From the NCBI GenBank assembly GCA_964422435.1, contig CAYRBB010000007.1, positions 12,363 through 76,362 on the forward strand: a stretch of DNA of 64,000 nucleotides, read 5' to 3'. This DNA comes from an uncultured Sphingomonadaceae bacterium. GTDB taxonomy: Bacteria; Pseudomonadota; Alphaproteobacteria; Sphingomonadales; Sphingomonadaceae. How positions within the stretch are numbered: position 1 is the first letter of the stretch; the number at the start of each line of letters is the position of its first letter. The notes beneath the pieces were generated by a model. That model saw nothing but the letters and a program-made list of their open reading frames with translations. It did not search any database and was not told the DNA's origin. A program made the position numbers and the translations under genes. This document shows positions 49,110 through 54,548 of this stretch, piece after piece.

Positions 49110-51446
49110 ATGACCAAGCGCGCAATCGCCCTTCTCACTACCTCTTCCATTTTCTCCGCCATGATACTTGCCACGCCGGCTGCGGCGCAAGACCAGCAAC
49201 AGACGGAACAGGACACGGGCCTTGGCACGATCATCGTGACCGCTCGCCGCAGCGAAGAGAACATCCAGGATGTGCCGATTTCTGTAAGCGCGCTGGACGA
49301 TGATGCACTGACCGCAATCAATTCGAGCGGGCAGGACATTCGCGCGCTTTCGGGCCGTGTCCCCAGCCTTTTGGTTGAAAGCTCCTTCGGGCGCACCTTT
49401 CCGCGCTTCTATATTCGCGGCCTCGGTAATACCGACTTCGACTTGAACGCCGCCCAACCGGTCAGTCTTGTCTATGACGACGTAGTGCTGGAAAATCCCA
49501 TTCTGAAGGGCTTTCCGGTGTTCGATATGCAGCAAATCGAGGTTCTGCGAGGTCCGCAGGGAACGCTGTTTGGCCGCAACACCCCGGCAGGCATCGTCAA
49601 GTTCGACACTGTCGAGCCGACCTTCGAGACAACAGGTTATGCGCAGGCGTCCTATGGCAGCTTCAACGCCGTCAATGCCGAGGCCGCTGTCAATTTCGCG
49701 GTGGGCGAAGGTGCCGCATTGCGTATTTCCGGGCTATATCAGCGGCAGGATGACTGGGTGGACAACGTCCTCCCCTCCGGCACTACCGAAGATGCTTTCG
49801 GCGGCTATGACGAGCTGGCCCTGCGCGCGCAGTTCCTGCTCGAGCCGACCGACAATTTCGAAATCCTGTTGACCGGCCAGCTGCGCGATCTGGACGGGAC
49901 AGCGCGCCTGTTCCGTGCCAACAATTTCACCCGGGGCCAGGAAGGCCTCAACGCCAATTTCGATCGCGACGAGGTTTCGATCGACGGTCAGAACGAGCAG
50001 AGCGTCCAAACACAGAACCTTGCCGCGCGCGTGACGCTCGACCTTGGCGCTGTGTCGATTATTTCGGTCACCAGCTACTGGCACGGAGAGTCTACTTCGG
50101 TCGGTGACGTCGATGGCGGATTTGGCGCCAATTTCCTGCCGGCCGGTCTGTTCGGCCCGGGTGATATCCCCTTCACCGCCGAAACCCGCGATTCGATCCC
50201 CGATCTCGACCAGTTCACGCAGGAAATCCGTATTGCGAGCAACGGCAGCGGGCCGCTCAGCTATCAGGCTGGCATCTTCTATTTCGACGAGACGCTGAGT
50301 ATTGAGAGCGAGAACTATTCCACCCTTGGTGATCCACTCAACCAGCCGGGCGGAGTCAATATCTTCGTCACGCAAGGACAGGAAAGCGAGGCCATCGGCA
50401 TTTTTGGGTCTGTGACCTATGATTTGACCGAGCAACTGAGCCTGACGGGCGGTATTCGCTACAATGACGATAGCCGTGATTTCACCGCTTCGCGCATTTC
50501 GGACACGCAATTCCCGGAGTTCCTGCAAAATCCGTTGGGCACCGTAACGCGCAGGGTCAGCGACGATACGATAACATGGGACATCAGCGCAGCCTACGAA
50601 GCATCGGAAGATGTAAACCTGTATGCCCGCGTCGCCCGCGGCTATCGCGCGCCGAGCATCCAGGGTCGCTTGCTGTTCCCGCCCGCCACGGCGACGCCGC
50701 TGGAAGACGGCGTGACGATTGCCGATTCGGAAACGATCACGTCCTACGAGGCCGGCATCAAGACGACTTTCTGGGATGGGCGAGCCCGCGTGAATCTCGG
50801 CGGTTTCCTCTATGATCTGAACAATGCGCAGCTGACCGCTGTGGGCGGCAACGTCAACGCCAACCGCCTGATCAATGCAGACAATGTACGCGGCTATGGC
50901 TTCGAGCTGGATGCGCAGCTCGCGCCTGCAGATGGGCTGACCTTCACAGCAGGGCTAAGCTACAACGATACGGAGATCCAGGATGAAGGCCTGACCACTG
51001 CAGCCTGCGGCGGCACGCGGGTCGACACTTTCCCGGATGTGTCGCTCTGCACCGTTACCGATCCGATCGTGACTCCTGCTGCTCCTTTCGCGGCGGCCAT
51101 CGTCAATATTGACGGGAACAGCCTGCCCCAGGCGCCCAAATGGATCGCCAACTGGACCGCACGCTACGAATTCCCCGTGGGCGACGGCGATGTTTACGTT
51201 TTCACCGACTGGGCATACCGTTCGCGGATCAACTTCTTCCTCTACGAAAGCGTCGAGTTCCAGGATGACAGCCTGCTCGAAGGTGGCCTGCGCGTGGGTT
51301 GGCAAAACGATCGCTTCGAAGTGGCCGGTTTCGTGCGCAACATCACCAATGATGAAAGCGCCGTAAGCGGGATCGACTTCAACAACCTGACTGCAATGGT
51401 CAATGAACCGCGCGTCTGGGGCGTGTTTGCAGGGATGCGGTTCTAG
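49110..51446 (+). CDS. TonB-dependent receptor
   Basis: Signal peptide; TonB box-like TIIVTARR; plug IEVLRGPQGTLFGRNTPAG; C-terminal EPRVWGVFAGMRF. Confidence 0.95.
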   Translation: MTKRAIALLTTSSIFSAMILATPAAAQDQQQTEQDTGLGTIIVTARRSEENIQDVPISVSALDDDALTAINSSGQDIRALSGRVPSLLVESSFGRTFPRFYIRGLGNTDFDLNAAQPVSLVYDDVVLENPILKGFPVFDMQQIEVLRGPQGTLFGRNTPAGIVKFDTVEPTFETTGYAQASYGSFNAVNAEAAVNFAVGEGAALRISGLYQRQDDWVDNVLPSGTTEDAFGGYDELALRAQFLLEPTDNFEILLTGQLRDLDGTARLFRANNFTRGQEGLNANFDRDEVSIDGQNEQSVQTQNLAARVTLDLGAVSIISVTSYWHGESTSVGDVDGGFGANFLPAGLFGPGDIPFTAETRDSIPDLDQFTQEIRIASNGSGPLSYQAGIFYFDETLSIESENYSTLGDPLNQPGGVNIFVTQGQESEAIGIFGSVTYDLTEQLSLTGGIRYNDDSRDFTASRISDTQFPEFLQNPLGTVTRRVSDDTITWDISAAYEASEDVNLYARVARGYRAPSIQGRLLFPPATATPLEDGVTIADSETITSYEAGIKTTFWDGRARVNLGGFLYDLNNAQLTAVGGNVNANRLINADNVRGYGFELDAQLAPADGLTFTAGLSYNDTEIQDEGLTTAACGGTRVDTFPDVSLCTVTDPIVTPAAPFAAAIVNIDGNSLPQAPKWIANWTARYEFPVGDGDVYVFTDWAYRSRINFFLYESVEFQDDSLLEGGLRVGWQNDRFEVAGFVRNITNDESAVSGIDFNNLTAMVNEPRVWGVFAGMRF

Positions 51447-51450
51447 GAGG

Positions 51451-51933
51451 TCAGGTCGCTTCGCCGCCGAAAGGCTTGTTCAGCTGGACGATTTTCCAGT
51501 TGAGCACGGTGGCGAAGCTGACCCATGCGAGGTAGGGGACGACCAGCAAGGGCGCGAGGTCGTCCCACCGCCCGAGGGTCAGGACCAGCGCCAGCACGCT
51601 AAGCCACAGGAACGGCACTTCGACGAGCGCCCAATCCGGACGACGTAGAGTGAAGAAGATCGGCGACCAGACGAAATTGGCGATACCGTTGATCGCGTAG
51701 AGCGCGATCAGCAGCGAAGTCTCCTCCGCAAGCTCCGCCGCATCCCAGCTGCGCACGAAAGCCCATGCGGCGAGGCCAAAGATCGTCGTCCATGCCGGGC
51801 CGAACAGCCAGTCCGGCGGCTGCCAGCTCGGCTTTTTGAGGTTGTAATACCACTCGCCAATCGTCGTAAGCAGCGCCCCACCCGCTCCGAGGATGAGCGC
51901 CCATGCGATGGCAAAGATGAGAGGGAAGGTCAT
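51451..51933 (-). CDS. tspO: TspO/MBR family membrane protein
   Basis: WYYNLKKPSWQPPDWLFGPAWT, NFVWSPIFF, PYLAWVSFATVLN. Confidence 0.93.
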   Translation of the reverse strand: MTFPLIFAIAWALILGAGGALLTTIGEWYYNLKKPSWQPPDWLFGPAWTTIFGLAAWAFVRSWDAAELAEETSLLIALYAINGIANFVWSPIFFTLRRPDWALVEVPFLWLSVLALVLTLGRWDDLAPLLVVPYLAWVSFATVLNWKIVQLNKPFGGEAT

Positions 51934-51936
51934 TGG

Positions 51937-52584
51937 CTATTGCTTCGGCGTAAAGTTTATCGGCGACCCCAGCGACTTCCATTCGAGCATAGAGCTGAGT
52001 AGCTCGGGCGTCGGATAATCCTCAATATCCTCCTCGGAGAAGCCAGCGCCAAGCTGCTTCTCATAGTGCCATGCCTGAAAATCAGCATATCTCGCCAAAA
52101 TTCTCGAAGCCCCAGGAGCTTGAATATCAGCTTCGCTGACAAGCCAATTCCTGACCTTACGAACCGCCTTTTGGAAATCGGCCTGATGAATCTGAATGTC
52201 CGAACCAGCAATGTCGGAAAGCGCCGCTTGGTACCTATATCGTTTTTCATCGAGGACCAGGAACCTCTTTTCGGCTCGACCTTCTCCAAACCAACGTCTA
52301 CACGCCCAGTCAACACCGTACTCAAATGGCATATTTAGCCTAAAAAACTCTCCTGGCTTGCTCGATTGCGAGCGACTCAAGTCATGTATCGAGAACTTCG
52401 AGTCTCTTATCAGGTCGGCAATCTTGTGCAGTCTGATCTCACCGGAATCGCTTCGCTCCTTGGCCAGCCTAGGCGACAGTCCCAAGTCCACAACGCAAAA
52501 CAAAATCGCCTGAAGAATTGGCTCATAATCTTCATCAAAGGGACAGTTGATGAAGACCGAAGCTTCAAATGTTGGGCTCGACAA
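51937..52584 (-). CDS. Hypothetical protein, nucleoside 2-deoxyribosyltransferase/TIR-like fold predicted
   Basis: VFINCPFD...KIADLIRDSKFSIHDLS...LNMPFEYG...LSDIAG; pattern resembles NDT-like D-L-S/T..NxxxE(L/Y)G; low GC. Confidence 0.65.
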   Translation of the reverse strand: MSSPTFEASVFINCPFDEDYEPILQAILFCVVDLGLSPRLAKERSDSGEIRLHKIADLIRDSKFSIHDLSRSQSSKPGEFFRLNMPFEYGVDWACRRWFGEGRAEKRFLVLDEKRYRYQAALSDIAGSDIQIHQADFQKAVRKVRNWLVSEADIQAPGASRILARYADFQAWHYEKQLGAGFSEEDIEDYPTPELLSSMLEWKSLGSPINFTPKQ

Positions 52585-52589
52585 AAATG

Positions 52590-52814
52590 TCAGCCTTTGG
52601 GAGGATGCGGATCATTCCCATAGGAATTCCGCTCCCTGATCCGTCCATCTTTGCCATGGATATAAAGCTCGGTTTGCTGATTTCGCGCTATGGACGTAGC
52701 CTTTTCAATGGCTTGCTTCTGTGTTGGATAGGTGGCCGAAGCACGTGATGCGCCCGACTTGCGCACACTCCATTTTCTTCCGTTGGGGACGACATGCTGT
52801 CCAGCTTTTGACAT
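52590..52814 (-). CDS. DUF2188-family small basic protein
   Basis: QHVVPN..WSVRKSGASRAS..TQKQAI..ELYIHGKDGRIRERNSYGNDPHPPKG; SD AAAGGA. Confidence 0.88.
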   Translation of the reverse strand: MSKAGQHVVPNGRKWSVRKSGASRASATYPTQKQAIEKATSIARNQQTELYIHGKDGRIRERNSYGNDPHPPKG

Positions 52815-52841
52815 TCAGGCGAGTTCCTTTCTTTAAAATTC

Positions 52842-52869
52842 AGTATAGCTATATTTATCAGAAAATGAA
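52842..52869 (-). promoter_or_regulatory. Promoter of the DUF2188 cassette with overlapping palindrome
   Basis: Minus strand TTCATT-N16-TATACT (GC-extended -10); TATAGCTATA palindrome at 52844-52853. Confidence 0.5.
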
Positions 52870-52887
52870 GCCTGCTTCGTGCCAAAC

Positions 52888-54417
52888 TCACCCCACCCCG
52901 GCAGCCTTCAGCAGCGCTTCGGTGCTCGCATCGAACCGCTCGCCGCCTTTTTCGATCTTTTTCGCGATCTCTTTGCCCAGTTCCACACCGAACTGGTCGA
53001 AGGGGTTGATGTCCATCAGCACTGCGTTCGCGAAGGTACGGTGTTCGTGGAAGGCGATCAGGGCGCCGAAAGTGCAGGCGTCGATATCGTCGCACAGAAT
53101 CGTCGCGCTCGGGCGATTGCCGGGGTAGTTGCGATGCGGATCGTCGCTCGACTTGCCCGCCATCAACGCTGCGCCTTGCGCGAAACAGTTCATCAGCAGG
53201 ATCGTGTGGTGCGCCGCGTCCAGCGTGTCGCCTGCTTCCACGCTGGCGATGAAGTCTATCGGGACCAAATGCGTGCCCTGGTGGAGCAGCTGGAAAACCG
53301 CGTGCTGCGCGTCTGTACCCACCCCGCCCCAGGTAATCGGCGCGGTCGGGCCGCTGGGCTGGCCATCGACCGTCACGCTTTTGCCGTTAGACTCCATTTC
53401 CAACTGCTGGAGGTAGTCTGGCAGCAGCCGTAGCCGCTCGTCATAGGCGAAGACCGCGCGGGTCTGCGCGCCCTTGATCCGGGCATACAGCAGGTCGGCA
53501 AAAGCCGCGCGCAGCGGAAGGTTGTCTCGCCCGTTCACATCGCGGAAATGCTCGTCCACCCGCGCAGCGCCATCAAGCATGGCCTGGAAATCGTCCCAGC
53601 CCACCGCGACAGCCACGGGAAAGCCGATGGAGGACCAGAGCGAATATCGCCCGCCCACGCTTTCGGCGAACGGCAGAATACGCGTTTCGTCGACGCCCCA
53701 TTCCACCGCCTTTTCCGGCGCGGCCGTGAGCGCGATGACCCGGCCACTTGCATCCGCCACGCCATTATCGGCGAGCCATTTCAGCGCACTCTGGGCGTTG
53801 GTCATCGTCTCGATCGTGGTGAAGGTCTTGGAAGCAACCGCAAGGAAAGTGGTTGCCGGGTCGCAGGCTTCGAAAGCCTCTTCCAACGCGACGCCATCAA
53901 TGTTGGAAACAACATGCACGTCCACCAGCGGCAAGTCGCGCGCGAGTGCGTCCACCGCCAGGTCCGGCCCCAGCGCGCTGCCGCCAATGCCGACATGGAT
54001 CAGGTGCTTGATCTCTCCAAACGCGCCTTCATGCAGCGCGCTGACGAGCAGCCGCATGCGTTCGCGCAAAGCCTCGGCCTCCTCGACCGAGGTCTCGCGC
54101 CCGACGCCACGCAATGCCGAATGTTCTGCAGCGCGACCTTCCGTGGGGTTCACTTCCTCGCCGGCGAAAAGTCTGGCCCGCATGCGATTAAAATCGCTCG
54201 CCTCGGCCAGCGTTTCAAAGTCGGCAAGCAAGTCGTCGGTCAGGTGTGTCTTCGACCAGTCGAACAGTACGCCAGTCGTTACCTGGTCTTCGCAATGCAA
54301 TTCCAATCGCGTTGCCAGCTTGTCCACCCGGTCAGCATCGGCAGCGAACAGCTCCTCAAGCGTAGGATCGGTATGGAGGGCGATCTTTTTCCAGGCATCG
54401 TCGCGGCTGAGGGTCAA
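52888..54417 (-). CDS. pgi: Glucose-6-phosphate isomerase
   Basis: GIGGSALG, VASKTFTT, VGGRYSLWS, QQLEMESNGK, FDQFGVELGK; TTG start at 54417 after AGGA. Confidence 0.97.
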   Translation of the reverse strand: MTLSRDDAWKKIALHTDPTLEELFAADADRVDKLATRLELHCEDQVTTGVLFDWSKTHLTDDLLADFETLAEASDFNRMRARLFAGEEVNPTEGRAAEHSALRGVGRETSVEEAEALRERMRLLVSALHEGAFGEIKHLIHVGIGGSALGPDLAVDALARDLPLVDVHVVSNIDGVALEEAFEACDPATTFLAVASKTFTTIETMTNAQSALKWLADNGVADASGRVIALTAAPEKAVEWGVDETRILPFAESVGGRYSLWSSIGFPVAVAVGWDDFQAMLDGAARVDEHFRDVNGRDNLPLRAAFADLLYARIKGAQTRAVFAYDERLRLLPDYLQQLEMESNGKSVTVDGQPSGPTAPITWGGVGTDAQHAVFQLLHQGTHLVPIDFIASVEAGDTLDAAHHTILLMNCFAQGAALMAGKSSDDPHRNYPGNRPSATILCDDIDACTFGALIAFHEHRTFANAVLMDINPFDQFGVELGKEIAKKIEKGGERFDASTEALLKAAGVG

Positions 54418-54548
54418 AGGGAAATCCTTTCCTAAGATTATCTCTTTATCGCTAGGCGCTTCGTTCATGAATGGAAACCGCAAATACCTATGCACAGTAG
54501 CGCTTTCCGCTCCGAGCTACGTCCGCGTGCGTTTATTCTCCAGAACAC

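What the first reader, a model, noticed from the sequence alone, without database searches (positions are those of the whole stretch)
51934..52887. Low-GC two-gene cassette (DUF2188 + NDT/TIR-like protein) with its own promoter and flanking 7-bp direct repeat: candidate new anti-phage or toxin-antitoxin system
Seen: hand counts on five 60-nt lines of the larger gene give 45-53% GC, versus 60% (pgi) and 73% (tspO) in one sampled line each. The two ORFs are 5 nt apart, behind an AT-rich promoter (GCTATACT -10) overlapped by the palindrome TATAGCTATA. TGCTTCG occurs at 51941-51947 and 52873-52879; removing the segment between the copies leaves pgi and tspO 22 nt apart. The 215-aa protein shows VFINCPFD / IHDLS / NMPFEYG, resembling the flavodoxin-like NDT/TIR catalytic pattern with a candidate catalytic Glu. 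Established: NDT-like N-glycosidases (retron effector RcaT) and TIR domains (ThsB) are nucleotide-cleaving defence components; DUF2188 is uncharacterised. Inference: a minimal defence or TA pair with DUF2188 as inhibitor, sensor or regulator. I do not recognise this pairing from named systems. A 7-mer match could be chance.
Basis: partly seen in the sequence, partly recalled or inferred. Interest (0 to 1): 0.8.

Follow-up and report, generated by a model that had tools for sequence, protein, structure and literature searches.

The report
DUF2188 plus hidden TIR-like enzyme pair
A small basic DUF2188 protein and an unannotated enzyme with the fold and active-site motif of bacterial immune TIR NAD-cleaving domains form a tightly coupled, widespread, horizontally spread two-gene module that is probably a toxin-antitoxin-like or anti-phage unit, though nobody has tested it.

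Summary
The two ORFs are real: DUF2188 (74 aa, 52590-52814, minus strand) and a 215-aa protein (51937-52584, minus strand), 5 nt apart. Cassette GC is 0.50 against 0.59 for the window.

The 215-aa protein has no Pfam, NCBIfam or PADLOC match. A pLDDT 94.5 model is closest to TIR domains (SPARTA, RPP1, SfSTING). A profile comparison aligns its invariant R82-x-N84-x-x-F-E88-x-G90 and S123-D124 motifs with the catalytic motif of Pfam PF10137 (CAP12/Pycsar effector TIR).

A DUF2188 gene sits directly upstream in 80 of 80 best loci from many phyla. The pair is patchy in the genus: any homologue in 4 of 25 genomes, the pair in 3.

DUF2188 is PADLOC candidate PDC-S16. It also leads SMODS, patatin, type I R-M, multiubiquitin, Ku and ligase genes, so it is a portable regulator-like part.

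The 7-bp direct repeat and the palindrome are at chance level. A -10-like element at this position recurs across loci.

The low GC is not simply recent transfer. Distant relatives carry the same cassette after pgi, with saturated synonymous sites and equally low GC3.

Most likely this is an effector-type TIR-like NAD+/nucleotide glycosidase restrained by DUF2188. Function is untested. Earlier agents of this scan reported the same pair in other genomes.

The parts
52815..52887 (-). 73-nt AT-rich (GC 0.37) leader between the pgi stop and the DUF2188 start. It holds the -10-like TATACT (52842-52847), the palindrome TATAGCTATA (52844-52853), the Shine-Dalgarno AAGGAA (52824-52829) and one copy of TGCTTCG (52873-52879).
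   Evidence: Sequence read; GC. -10-like hexamers cluster at -50 to -21 in 81 loci. No full sigma-70 consensus was found. Palindrome and repeat are at chance level. Homology to the closest relative G005 ends exactly at the pgi stop codon.
52590..52814 (-). DUF2188 gene: 74 aa, net charge about +9, with a conserved C-terminal tail SYGNDPHPPKG. It is the small partner or regulator of the pair.
   Evidence: Pfam PF09954 E 8.8e-26; PADLOC PDC-S16 E 1.2e-36; phrog_3220 E 3e-29. Alignment of 56 partners: H7, V8, W15, G21 and A35 invariant, tail conserved. The charge was counted from the sequence.
51937..52584 (-). 215-aa TIR-like protein (TTG start). Residues 1 to about 152 form a flavodoxin/TIR fold; residues about 155-215 form a helical extension.
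   Evidence: No Pfam, NCBIfam, PADLOC or PHROG hit. 3445 homologues and 2374 clusters at 50% identity. AF2 pLDDT 94.5. Foldseek top hits are TIR domains. hhalign to PF10137 domains: 85% probability, E 5.9e-6.
52315..52341 (-). Codons for R82-L-N84-M-P-F-E88-Y-G90, the predicted catalytic motif. The Glu88 codon GAG is at 52321-52323.
   Evidence: R82, N84, E88 and G90 are invariant in 112 sequences. They align to RqNVifElG of PF10137 domains and to PRDNVVFEFG of SfSTING 7un8.
51451..51933 (-). tspO. It is flanking and not part of the module, but its ATG lies 3 nt after the TIR-like stop codon and has no evident Shine-Dalgarno sequence of its own, so it is probably co-transcribed.
   Evidence: Pfam TspO_MBR 4.8e-41; sequence. 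Homology to G005 resumes at the tspO ATG. No terminator-like site in 51400-53100.
52888..54495 (-). pgi, flanking on the same strand upstream. Its 3' side is a variable spot in this genus.
   Evidence: Pfam PGI 1.3e-156. 13 of 14 other genomes of the genus have other genes after pgi.

Best explanation
This is a two-gene conflict module of the toxin-antitoxin or abortive-infection type.

The 215-aa protein is a divergent effector-type TIR domain, nearest to the CAP12/Pycsar TIR family (PF10137). When free to act, it uses Glu88 in the R-x-N-x-x-F-E-x-G motif to cleave the N-glycosidic bond of NAD+ or a related nucleotide, and so arrests the cell.

The 74-aa, strongly basic DUF2188 protein is encoded 5 nt upstream and made from the same transcript. 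It keeps the enzyme off. It does this either by binding the enzyme or by repressing its expression through nucleic-acid binding. Infection or stress removes this restraint.

DUF2188 is a portable part that also heads operons with unrelated effectors, so its role is regulatory rather than TIR-specific.

Shown here: gene structure, fold, conserved motif, strict linkage, patchy horizontal distribution, and the promiscuity of DUF2188.

Inferred: NADase chemistry, toxicity, restraint by DUF2188, and the trigger.
For: - Fold: a pLDDT 94.5 model is closest to the SPARTA TIR (8oz6_A, E 5.5e-4, TM 0.50), RPP1 TIR and SfSTING TIR. It also matches a viral CAP12/Pycsar TIR protein.
- Motif: R51, D68, R82, N84, E88, G90, S123 and D129 are invariant in 112 sequences.
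- Homology: hhalign to five PF10137 domains gives 85% probability and E 5.9e-6, with R-N-E-G and S-D-G in register. 13 of 112 members give sub-threshold PF10137 hits, and PF10137 is the only recurrent family.
- Chemistry: PF10137 TIRs are NAD+-depleting effectors (established knowledge: Cap12/TIR-STING, PycTIR).
- Linkage: DUF2188 lies directly upstream on the same strand in 80 of 80 loci from many phyla, with gaps from about -10 to +38 nt once start codons are fitted to the DUF2188 profile, some of them 4-nt overlaps.
- Partner swap: TIR-like genes that lack DUF2188 all have another small basic ORF upstream.
- Distribution: a homologue occurs in 4 of 25 genomes of the genus and the pair in 3 (G000, G002, G015; G021's copy lacks DUF2188). 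The TIR-like gene is in 9 of 401 genomes of the phylum. Cassette GC is below the flanks in 72 of 77 loci.
- Context: some copies sit beside Thoeris, DRT, R-M or CapH-like genes, and one is cargo of a TniA/B/Q transposon.
- DUF2188: it is PADLOC PDC-S16. It also heads SMODS, patatin and HsdM genes. A HicB-N-like antitoxin fold is proposed for it in PMC13621843.
Against:
- The 215-aa protein fails every curated model, PF10137 included.
- It has no recognised sensor domain and no cyclase partner.
- Most neighbours in 39 loci are housekeeping genes.
- At this site the cassette seems old and under stronger purifying selection than pgi. That is unusual for a selfish TA module.
- No operator-like palindrome is conserved.
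- DUF2188 also precedes Ku, DNA ligase and a HalD-like oxygenase, which are not toxic effectors.
- DUF2188 similarity to HicB is inconclusive (48% probability).
- The one apparent DUF2188-TIR fusion (L081) is a scaffold gap.
Confidence: 0.45

Rival explanations
1. Sensor-activator model. DUF2188 is not an inhibitor. It is a nucleic-acid or DNA-end sensor. On binding a phage-derived ligand it nucleates oligomers of the TIR-like protein and switches its NADase on. This would be a two-component abortive-infection system without antitoxin logic.
For: - TIR effectors are generally switched on by induced oligomerisation (established knowledge: SPARTA, TIR-STING, which are the top fold matches).
- DUF2188 is very basic (sequence).
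- It keeps the same C-terminal tail whether it precedes TIR-like, SMODS, patatin, HsdM or Ku/ligase genes. This suggests it reads a common signal such as DNA.
- Some DUF2188 operons carry the DNA-damage-responsive CapH/CapP regulators.
Against: - No ligand-binding or DNA-binding fold has been shown for DUF2188.
- One sensor would have to activate very different enzymes directly.
- Gene order (small gene first, coupled) fits restraint better than activation.
Confidence: 0.2
2. Non-conflict, housekeeping reading. The TIR/NDT-like protein is a nucleoside or nucleotide glycosidase or transferase for salvage or stress metabolism, and DUF2188 is a general small stress or DNA-associated protein. The pair is merely an accessory metabolic operon.
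For: - NDT enzymes and CMP/dNMP glycosidases are among the fold matches.
- Most neighbours are housekeeping genes.
- Here the pair lies in one transcriptional direction with pgi and tspO, with no terminator between them.
- Residence after pgi looks long, with strong purifying selection.
- DUF2188 also precedes Ku and ligase genes.
Against: - No member hits an NDT model, whereas PF10137 is the recurrent weak hit and the hhalign match.
- Distribution is patchy and incongruent with taxonomy, and GC is persistently deviant.
- DUF2188 is a defence-island candidate and heads CBASS-type operons.
Confidence: 0.12
3. Thoeris-like signalling. The TIR-like protein makes a NAD+-derived signal on infection, and DUF2188 is the signal receptor or effector.
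For: - The Thoeris survey (bioRxiv 10.64898/2025.12.03.692087) lists a DUF2188 protein as an untested putative effector in a ThsB-rich island.
- Two cassette loci lie next to ThsA/ThsB genes.
Against: - The 215-aa protein hits no ThsB model, and its nearest family is the effector-type PF10137.
- DUF2188 has 74 residues and no enzymatic, pore-forming or known signal-binding domain.
- DUF2188 also precedes R-M, SMODS and NHEJ genes that need no TIR signal.
- DUF2188-less TIR-like genes use a different small partner.
Confidence: 0.08

Closest known systems
CAP12/Pycsar effector TIR domains (Pfam PF10137; for example the TIR of SfSTING, PDB 7un8, and PycTIR)
   Same: - Flavodoxin-like TIR fold.
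- Same motif order: beta-A 'vFi..', then R-x-N-x-x-F-E-x-G with the Glu at the start of helix C, then S-D-x-x-G.
- Predicted NAD+ glycosidase chemistry.
   Different: - Below the Pfam threshold.
- Free-standing, with a helical tail of about 60 aa instead of a STING, SAVED or cNMP-binding sensor.
- No cyclase in the operon.
- Partnered instead with a 74-aa DUF2188 protein.
- Extra invariant residues: C14, H67, D68, D129, H133.
PADLOC candidate system PDC-S16 (DUF2188, listed as a single-gene candidate)
   Same: The window's 74-aa protein matches both PDC-S16 models end to end (E 1e-36).
   Different: - PADLOC treats it as a single gene.
- Here it is one half of an obligate pair, as seen from the TIR-like side (80 of 80 loci).
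- In 401 genomes only 6 of 26 strong DUF2188 genes (E <= 1e-18) had this partner.
Type II toxin-antitoxin modules, especially HicAB, whose HicB N-domain fold has been proposed for DUF2188 (PMC13621843)
   Same: - A small upstream gene coupled to a larger putative toxin.
- Own promoter-like element.
- Horizontal, patchy spread.
- Exchange of the small partner between families.
   Different: - No toxicity or neutralisation data.
- No conserved operator palindrome.
- DUF2188 to HicB-N similarity is only 48% probability.
- The toxin would be a TIR-type enzyme, not an RNase.
CapH/CapP-associated DUF2188 operons and CBASS operons with an adjacent DUF2188 (Lau et al., bioRxiv 10.1101/2022.04.27.489752; Huiting et al., bioRxiv 10.1101/2022.03.30.486325)
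   Same: A DUF2188 of the same type and tail is the first gene of a defence operon. This was seen here in relatives, before patatin plus CD-NTase with a divergent HTH plus metallopeptidase (L136).
   Different: - The window's cassette has no CapH/CapP pair and no cyclase.
- Its only other gene is the TIR-like enzyme.

Membership tests
Pfam PF10137 CAP12/Pycsar effector TIR | Flavodoxin-like TIR fold | tested here: met
   AF2 pLDDT 94.5. Foldseek top hits are SPARTA, RPP1 and SfSTING TIR domains, probability 1.0, TM 0.4-0.5 over about 160 columns.
Pfam PF10137 CAP12/Pycsar effector TIR | Catalytic motif R-x-N-[VI]-x-F-E-x-G followed by P-S-D-x-x-G | tested here: met
   R82, N84, E88, G90, S123, D124 and G127 are invariant or nearly so. 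They align in register with five PF10137 domains (hhalign 85%, E 5.9e-6) and with SfSTING.
Pfam PF10137 CAP12/Pycsar effector TIR | Scores above the curated Pfam gathering threshold | tested here: not met
   No family for the window protein. 13 of 112 homologues hit, all below the cut-off, best E 4.7e-4.
CBASS / Pycsar effector context | A nucleotide-sensor domain (STING, SAVED, cNMP-binding) on the TIR protein and a cyclase in the operon | tested here: not met
   Only two genes lie between pgi and tspO. The C-terminal 60 aa has no Pfam domain. The partner in 80 of 80 loci is DUF2188.
TIR NADase (enzymatic) | NAD+ cleavage dependent on the conserved Glu | not testable with these tools
   Needs an enzyme assay with the E88A control.
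Thoeris | ThsB-type TIR (PF08937 or PADLOC ThsB models) plus an effector with a signal-binding domain | tested here: not met
   No PADLOC or Pfam hit of the 215-aa protein to ThsB models. DUF2188 has no SLOG or Macro domain.
Nucleoside 2-deoxyribosyltransferase (NDT, PF05014 and relatives) | Match to NDT profiles; NDT as nearest fold | tested here: not met
   No NDT family appears among the weak hits of 112 members. NDT structures rank below TIR domains (rank 20 and lower, E >= 0.012).
Type II toxin-antitoxin module | Small upstream gene tightly coupled to the toxin gene, inherited together | tested here: met
   5-nt gap here. In the other loci the gaps run from about -10 to +38 nt with fitted start codons, in 80 of 80 loci.
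Type II toxin-antitoxin module | Toxicity of one gene neutralised by the other | not testable with these tools
   Needs expression tests.
Type II toxin-antitoxin module | Autoregulatory operator (palindrome) at the promoter | tested here: not met
   The best palindrome arm upstream averages 4.23 nt against 4.18 in shuffles over 81 loci. The window's 5-nt arms are reached in 32% of shuffles.
PADLOC PDC-S16 | Match to the PDC-S16 profile | tested here: met
   E 1.2e-36 and 2.5e-35, full length.
HicB-like antitoxin fold (for DUF2188) | Profile similarity to HicB N-terminal domains | tested here: inconclusive
   hhalign of 56 DUF2188 partners against 16 HicB N-domains: 48% probability, E 1.8e-4, 46 columns. 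No PDB hit by sequence.
Transposon or integron-type insertion | Target-site duplication or bracketing inverted repeat/attC at the cassette ends | tested here: not met
   The direct repeat is at chance level. No inverted repeat brackets the cassette. Only 3 nt separate the TIR-like stop from the tspO ATG.

The most novel reading that the evidence does not exclude
DUF2188 is a portable 'leader' regulator of conflict systems: a 74-aa basic, probably nucleic-acid-binding protein with a conserved SYGxDPxPPKG tail. It is placed as the first gene before many unrelated effectors: this TIR-like enzyme, SMODS/CD-NTase, patatin, type I R-M, multiubiquitin systems, and even Ku/LigD. In each it sets the threshold for, or the timing of, their expression or activation. 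This would be analogous to the C (controller) proteins of restriction-modification systems. On this reading the TIR-like pair is the minimal form of such a gated NADase immune module.
Probability: 0.25. Interest if true: 0.8.

Novelty: new variant of a known kind. Interest (0 to 1): 0.6.

Why it matters
TIR-domain NAD+ cleavage is a shared theme of bacterial, plant and animal immunity. This family has 2374 clusters at 50% identity, occurs in about 2% of Pseudomonadota genomes and spans many other phyla. Yet Pfam, NCBIfam and PADLOC do not recognise it, and public records call it 'hypothetical protein'.

It is a free-standing effector-type TIR whose only partner is a 74-aa protein. If the pair is a defence or TA module, it would be one of the smallest TIR systems known.

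It would also give a handle on DUF2188, a recurrent but unexplained first gene of CBASS, SMODS, R-M and other operons.

The pair is small, easy to clone, and has an obvious catalytic mutant, so the question can be tested directly.

Tried and rejected
1. Fusion evidence. L081 seemed to encode a DUF2188-TIR fusion of 258 aa. Translation shows XXXX from a run of N, so it is a scaffold gap and I rejected it.
2. The 7-bp direct repeat as a target-site duplication: rejected.
3. The palindrome as an operator: rejected as unsupported.
4. Empty-site search. The closest relative G005 (pgi 92%, tspO 88%) has no empty site. It has a different 134-aa ORF, and homology breaks exactly at the pgi stop and the tspO ATG.
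5. Sequence searches of the PDB with either protein or their profiles gave nothing significant.
6. The first AF2 model, from 25 close homologues, was mediocre (pLDDT 71.6). It was replaced by one built from 112 diverse sequences.
7. Phage genomes: no homologue of the TIR-like protein in 50,697 records.
9. Burroughs & Aravind 2020 could not be read because it is not held.
10. DUF2188 against HicB-N: inconclusive.
Full report
**What is there**

On the minus strand the window reads pgi (52888-54495), a 73-nt AT-rich leader, a 74-aa ORF (52590-52814), a 5-nt gap, a 215-aa ORF with a TTG start (51937-52584), a 3-nt gap, and tspO (51451-51933).
- Pfam names pgi, tspO and the small ORF (DUF2188, E 8.8e-26) but finds nothing for the 215-aa protein. 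NCBIfam, PADLOC and PHROGs also find nothing for it.
- The small protein matches PADLOC candidate PDC-S16 end to end (E 1e-36) and phrog_3220.
- Cassette GC is 0.502 against 0.589 for the window. GC3 is 0.55 and 0.49 against 0.75 (pgi) and 0.81 (tspO).

**The repeat, the palindrome and the promoter**

- It occurs 22 times in the window, with 15.6 expected.
- A 7-nt match between the two cassette ends arises in 30% of shuffles.
- Across 81 cassette loci the longest end-to-end repeat averages 6.47 nt against 6.46 in shuffles.

TATAGCTATA has 5-nt arms, a value reached in 32% of shuffles. Palindromes are not enriched upstream of the cassette elsewhere. No inverted repeat brackets the cassette.

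The consensus scanner found no full sigma-70 promoter and no terminator. However, -10-like hexamers cluster from -50 to -21 before the DUF2188 start in the 81 loci: 48 of 75 hits. The window's TATACT lies at -33. An own promoter is therefore plausible by comparison but not shown.

**The 215-aa protein**

It belongs to a large family: 3445 hits among 90% clusters and 2374 representatives at 50% identity.
- In an alignment of 112 diverse members, R51, D68, R82, N84, E88, G90, S123 and D129 are invariant. F11, N13, C14, P15, D17, H67, S70, D124, G127, H133, R145 and W147 are nearly so.
- A model from that alignment has pLDDT 94.5. It shows a five-stranded flavodoxin-like domain (residues 1 to about 152) followed by three helices.
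- Its best PDB neighbours are the TIR domains of SPARTA (8oz6_A, E 5.5e-4, TM 0.50), RPP1 and SfSTING. NDT enzymes rank further down.
- In the viral library a CAP12/Pycsar TIR protein ranks second.
- PF10137 is the only family that recurs among weak Pfam hits (13 of 112 members).
- I took five PF10137 domains from genomes of the same class. A profile-profile comparison gives 85% probability and E 5.9e-6. VFINCPFD aligns with kvFvvHGhD, R82-N84-E88-G90 with RqNVifElG, and S123-D124-G127 with PSDxxG.
- The profile also aligns the motif with PRDNVVFEFG of SfSTING. From the literature as I recall it, that Glu is the catalytic residue of SfSTING.

The nearest family is the effector-type TIR, not NDT and not ThsB. 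Membership in PF10137 in the strict sense fails, because the protein scores below the threshold and has no sensor domain or cyclase.

**Linkage**

In the 80 best loci from one genome per species, a DUF2188 gene lies directly upstream on the same strand in all 80. With start codons fitted to the DUF2188 profile, the gaps run from about -10 to +38 nt and some are 4-nt overlaps. The loci come from Alpha-, Beta- and Gammaproteobacteria, Acidobacteriota, Chlorobiota, Cyanobacteriota, Spirochaetota, Latescibacterota and others. One apparent fusion (L081) is a scaffold gap.

In a separate sample of 401 genomes of the phylum, the TIR-like gene occurs in 9 genomes (10 copies) and 6 copies are next to DUF2188. 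Three full-length copies without DUF2188 in that sample, and three more in relatives, each have a different small basic ORF directly upstream. These ORFs are 59-104 aa, rich in K, A and S, share a motif near the C-terminus, and have no Pfam family. The tenth copy (G555) is a fragment and was not examined. So every full-length copy examined has a small basic upstream partner, usually DUF2188.

**DUF2188 is promiscuous**

Only 6 of the 26 strong DUF2188 genes (E <= 1e-18) in the 401 genomes precede this enzyme. I read 23 other DUF2188 loci. Their downstream genes are:
- SMODS/CD-NTase (3 loci)
- patatin (2 loci, one of them with a CD-NTase and a divergent HTH plus metallopeptidase pair of the CapH/CapP kind)
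- type I HsdM
- multiubiquitin
- Ku
- ATP-dependent DNA ligase
- a HalD-like oxygenase
- an unknown 386-aa family (6 loci)

The C-terminal tail SYGxDPxPPKG is kept across these partners. On a DUF2188 tree the TIR-paired proteins are not one clade, and at least 2-4 partner switches are needed. The tree also ignores taxonomy.

The literature agrees that DUF2188 accompanies defence operons. It is listed as an untested putative Thoeris effector. One paper proposes a HicB-N-like antitoxin fold for it (PMC13621843). My own profile test against 16 HicB N-domains is inconclusive (48%).

**Distribution and history**

- A homologue of the TIR-like protein is found in 4 of 25 genomes of the genus, and the DUF2188-TIR-like pair in 3: this genome, G002 and G015. 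G021's copy is 35% identical and lacks DUF2188.
- The closest relative (G005: pgi 92%, tspO 88%) has a different 134-aa ORF between pgi and tspO. Homology breaks exactly at the pgi stop and the tspO ATG.
- The 3' side of pgi is variable across the genus.
- Yet the closest homologues of the cassette (78-85% identical) lie in the same place, rnc-lepB-pgi-DUF2188-TIR-like-(tspO or a DEAD helicase). They are on contigs whose pgi is only 71-75%, tspO 68% and lepB 54% identical to the window's.
- Third-codon positions of the cassette are saturated (0.39-0.46 identity). Its GC3 stays at 0.50-0.57 in all three lineages, beside flanks at 0.75-0.86.

The cassette has therefore probably sat after pgi for a long time, under stronger purifying selection than pgi. 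Its low GC is a maintained property, not just a mark of recent arrival. Cassette GC is below the flanks in 72 of 77 loci, on average by 8.7 points.

Elsewhere the pair sits in quite different places: an aryl-polyene cluster in Caulobacter, and next to lipoate and glycerol genes in Methylobacterium. Among 148 neighbours in 39 loci most are housekeeping genes, with some Thoeris, MADS, DRT, R-M and CapH-like hits. No phage carries the TIR-like gene. Seventeen plasmids do, always annotated as 'hypothetical protein', and once as cargo of a TniA/B/Q transposon.

**Reading**

The best-supported model is a small conflict module. An effector-type TIR-like glycosidase, probably an NADase acting through Glu88, is restrained by a co-translated DUF2188 protein. 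Because DUF2188 is portable, that protein more likely acts as a generic regulator or sensor than as a TIR-specific plug.

The rivals are a sensor-activator model, a non-conflict metabolic enzyme, and a Thoeris-like signal pair. All need bench tests, which are simple because the module is under 1 kb and has an obvious catalytic mutant.

Earlier agents of this scan reached the same identification in at least six other genomes. I had reached the PF10137 result independently before I read those notes.

Noticed in passing
L119:3721-4125 (G005, closest relative): At the pgi|tspO site where this genome has the cassette, the closest relative has an unrelated 134-aa ORF with a hydrophobic C-terminus and no Pfam family. 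Homology between the two genomes breaks exactly at the pgi stop codon and at the tspO ATG.
   Followed up: partly
window 52888 (3' end of pgi); L147-L161: The region just downstream of pgi is a variable spot in this genus. 13 of 14 other genomes have other genes there, such as a glutathione-reductase-like gene, a 340-aa unknown, or an MFS-like gene.
   Followed up: partly
L137, L138, L139, L008, L009, L010 (upstream of their TIR-like genes): TIR-like genes without DUF2188 have another small basic ORF directly upstream. These are 59-104 aa, rich in K, A and S, with a motif near the C-terminus like [LF][TS]x6A[VI]xK[VF] and sometimes TGRFV. They have no Pfam family and may be a second partner family.
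   Followed up: partly
L198, L202, L204 (genome G536): Three DUF2188 genes in one genome precede Ku and ATP-dependent DNA ligase (NHEJ) genes. This hints at a DNA-related role for DUF2188 outside defence.
   Followed up: partly
L192, L194, L197, L199, L200, L135: A DUF2188 subtype with the tail SHGxDPRNIKG is regularly followed by a conserved protein of about 386-478 aa (MLHIARFIRNTPAKGLQAYF...) with no Pfam family. This is another undescribed DUF2188 pairing.
   Followed up: no
L166 (Sphingomonas aliaeris plasmid NZ_CP061036.1): A TIR-like gene with a 56-aa upstream partner lies just downstream of TniA/TniB/TniQ transposition genes, after an HU gene and a serine protease gene. It is probably transposon cargo.
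   Followed up: no
Plasmid hits H2-H5 (Sinorhizobium fredii/sojae): The TIR-like match is split into 3 pieces spread over about 1.35 kb, so these copies may be interrupted or decayed.
   Followed up: no
window 51931-51939: The tspO ATG lies 3 nt after the TIR-like stop codon and has no evident Shine-Dalgarno sequence, so tspO probably depends on transcription, and perhaps translation, of the cassette. The genome holds three tspO paralogues.
   Followed up: no
window 54430-54495: The listed pgi ORF starts at a GTG at 54495, but homologues align only from about residue 23-35. The true start is probably further downstream.
   Followed up: no
L165 (Sphingobium plasmid AP027328.1): In the deposited annotation the TIR-like gene is called from an internal start (384 nt instead of about 630). 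The family is thus both unnamed and sometimes truncated in public records.
   Followed up: no
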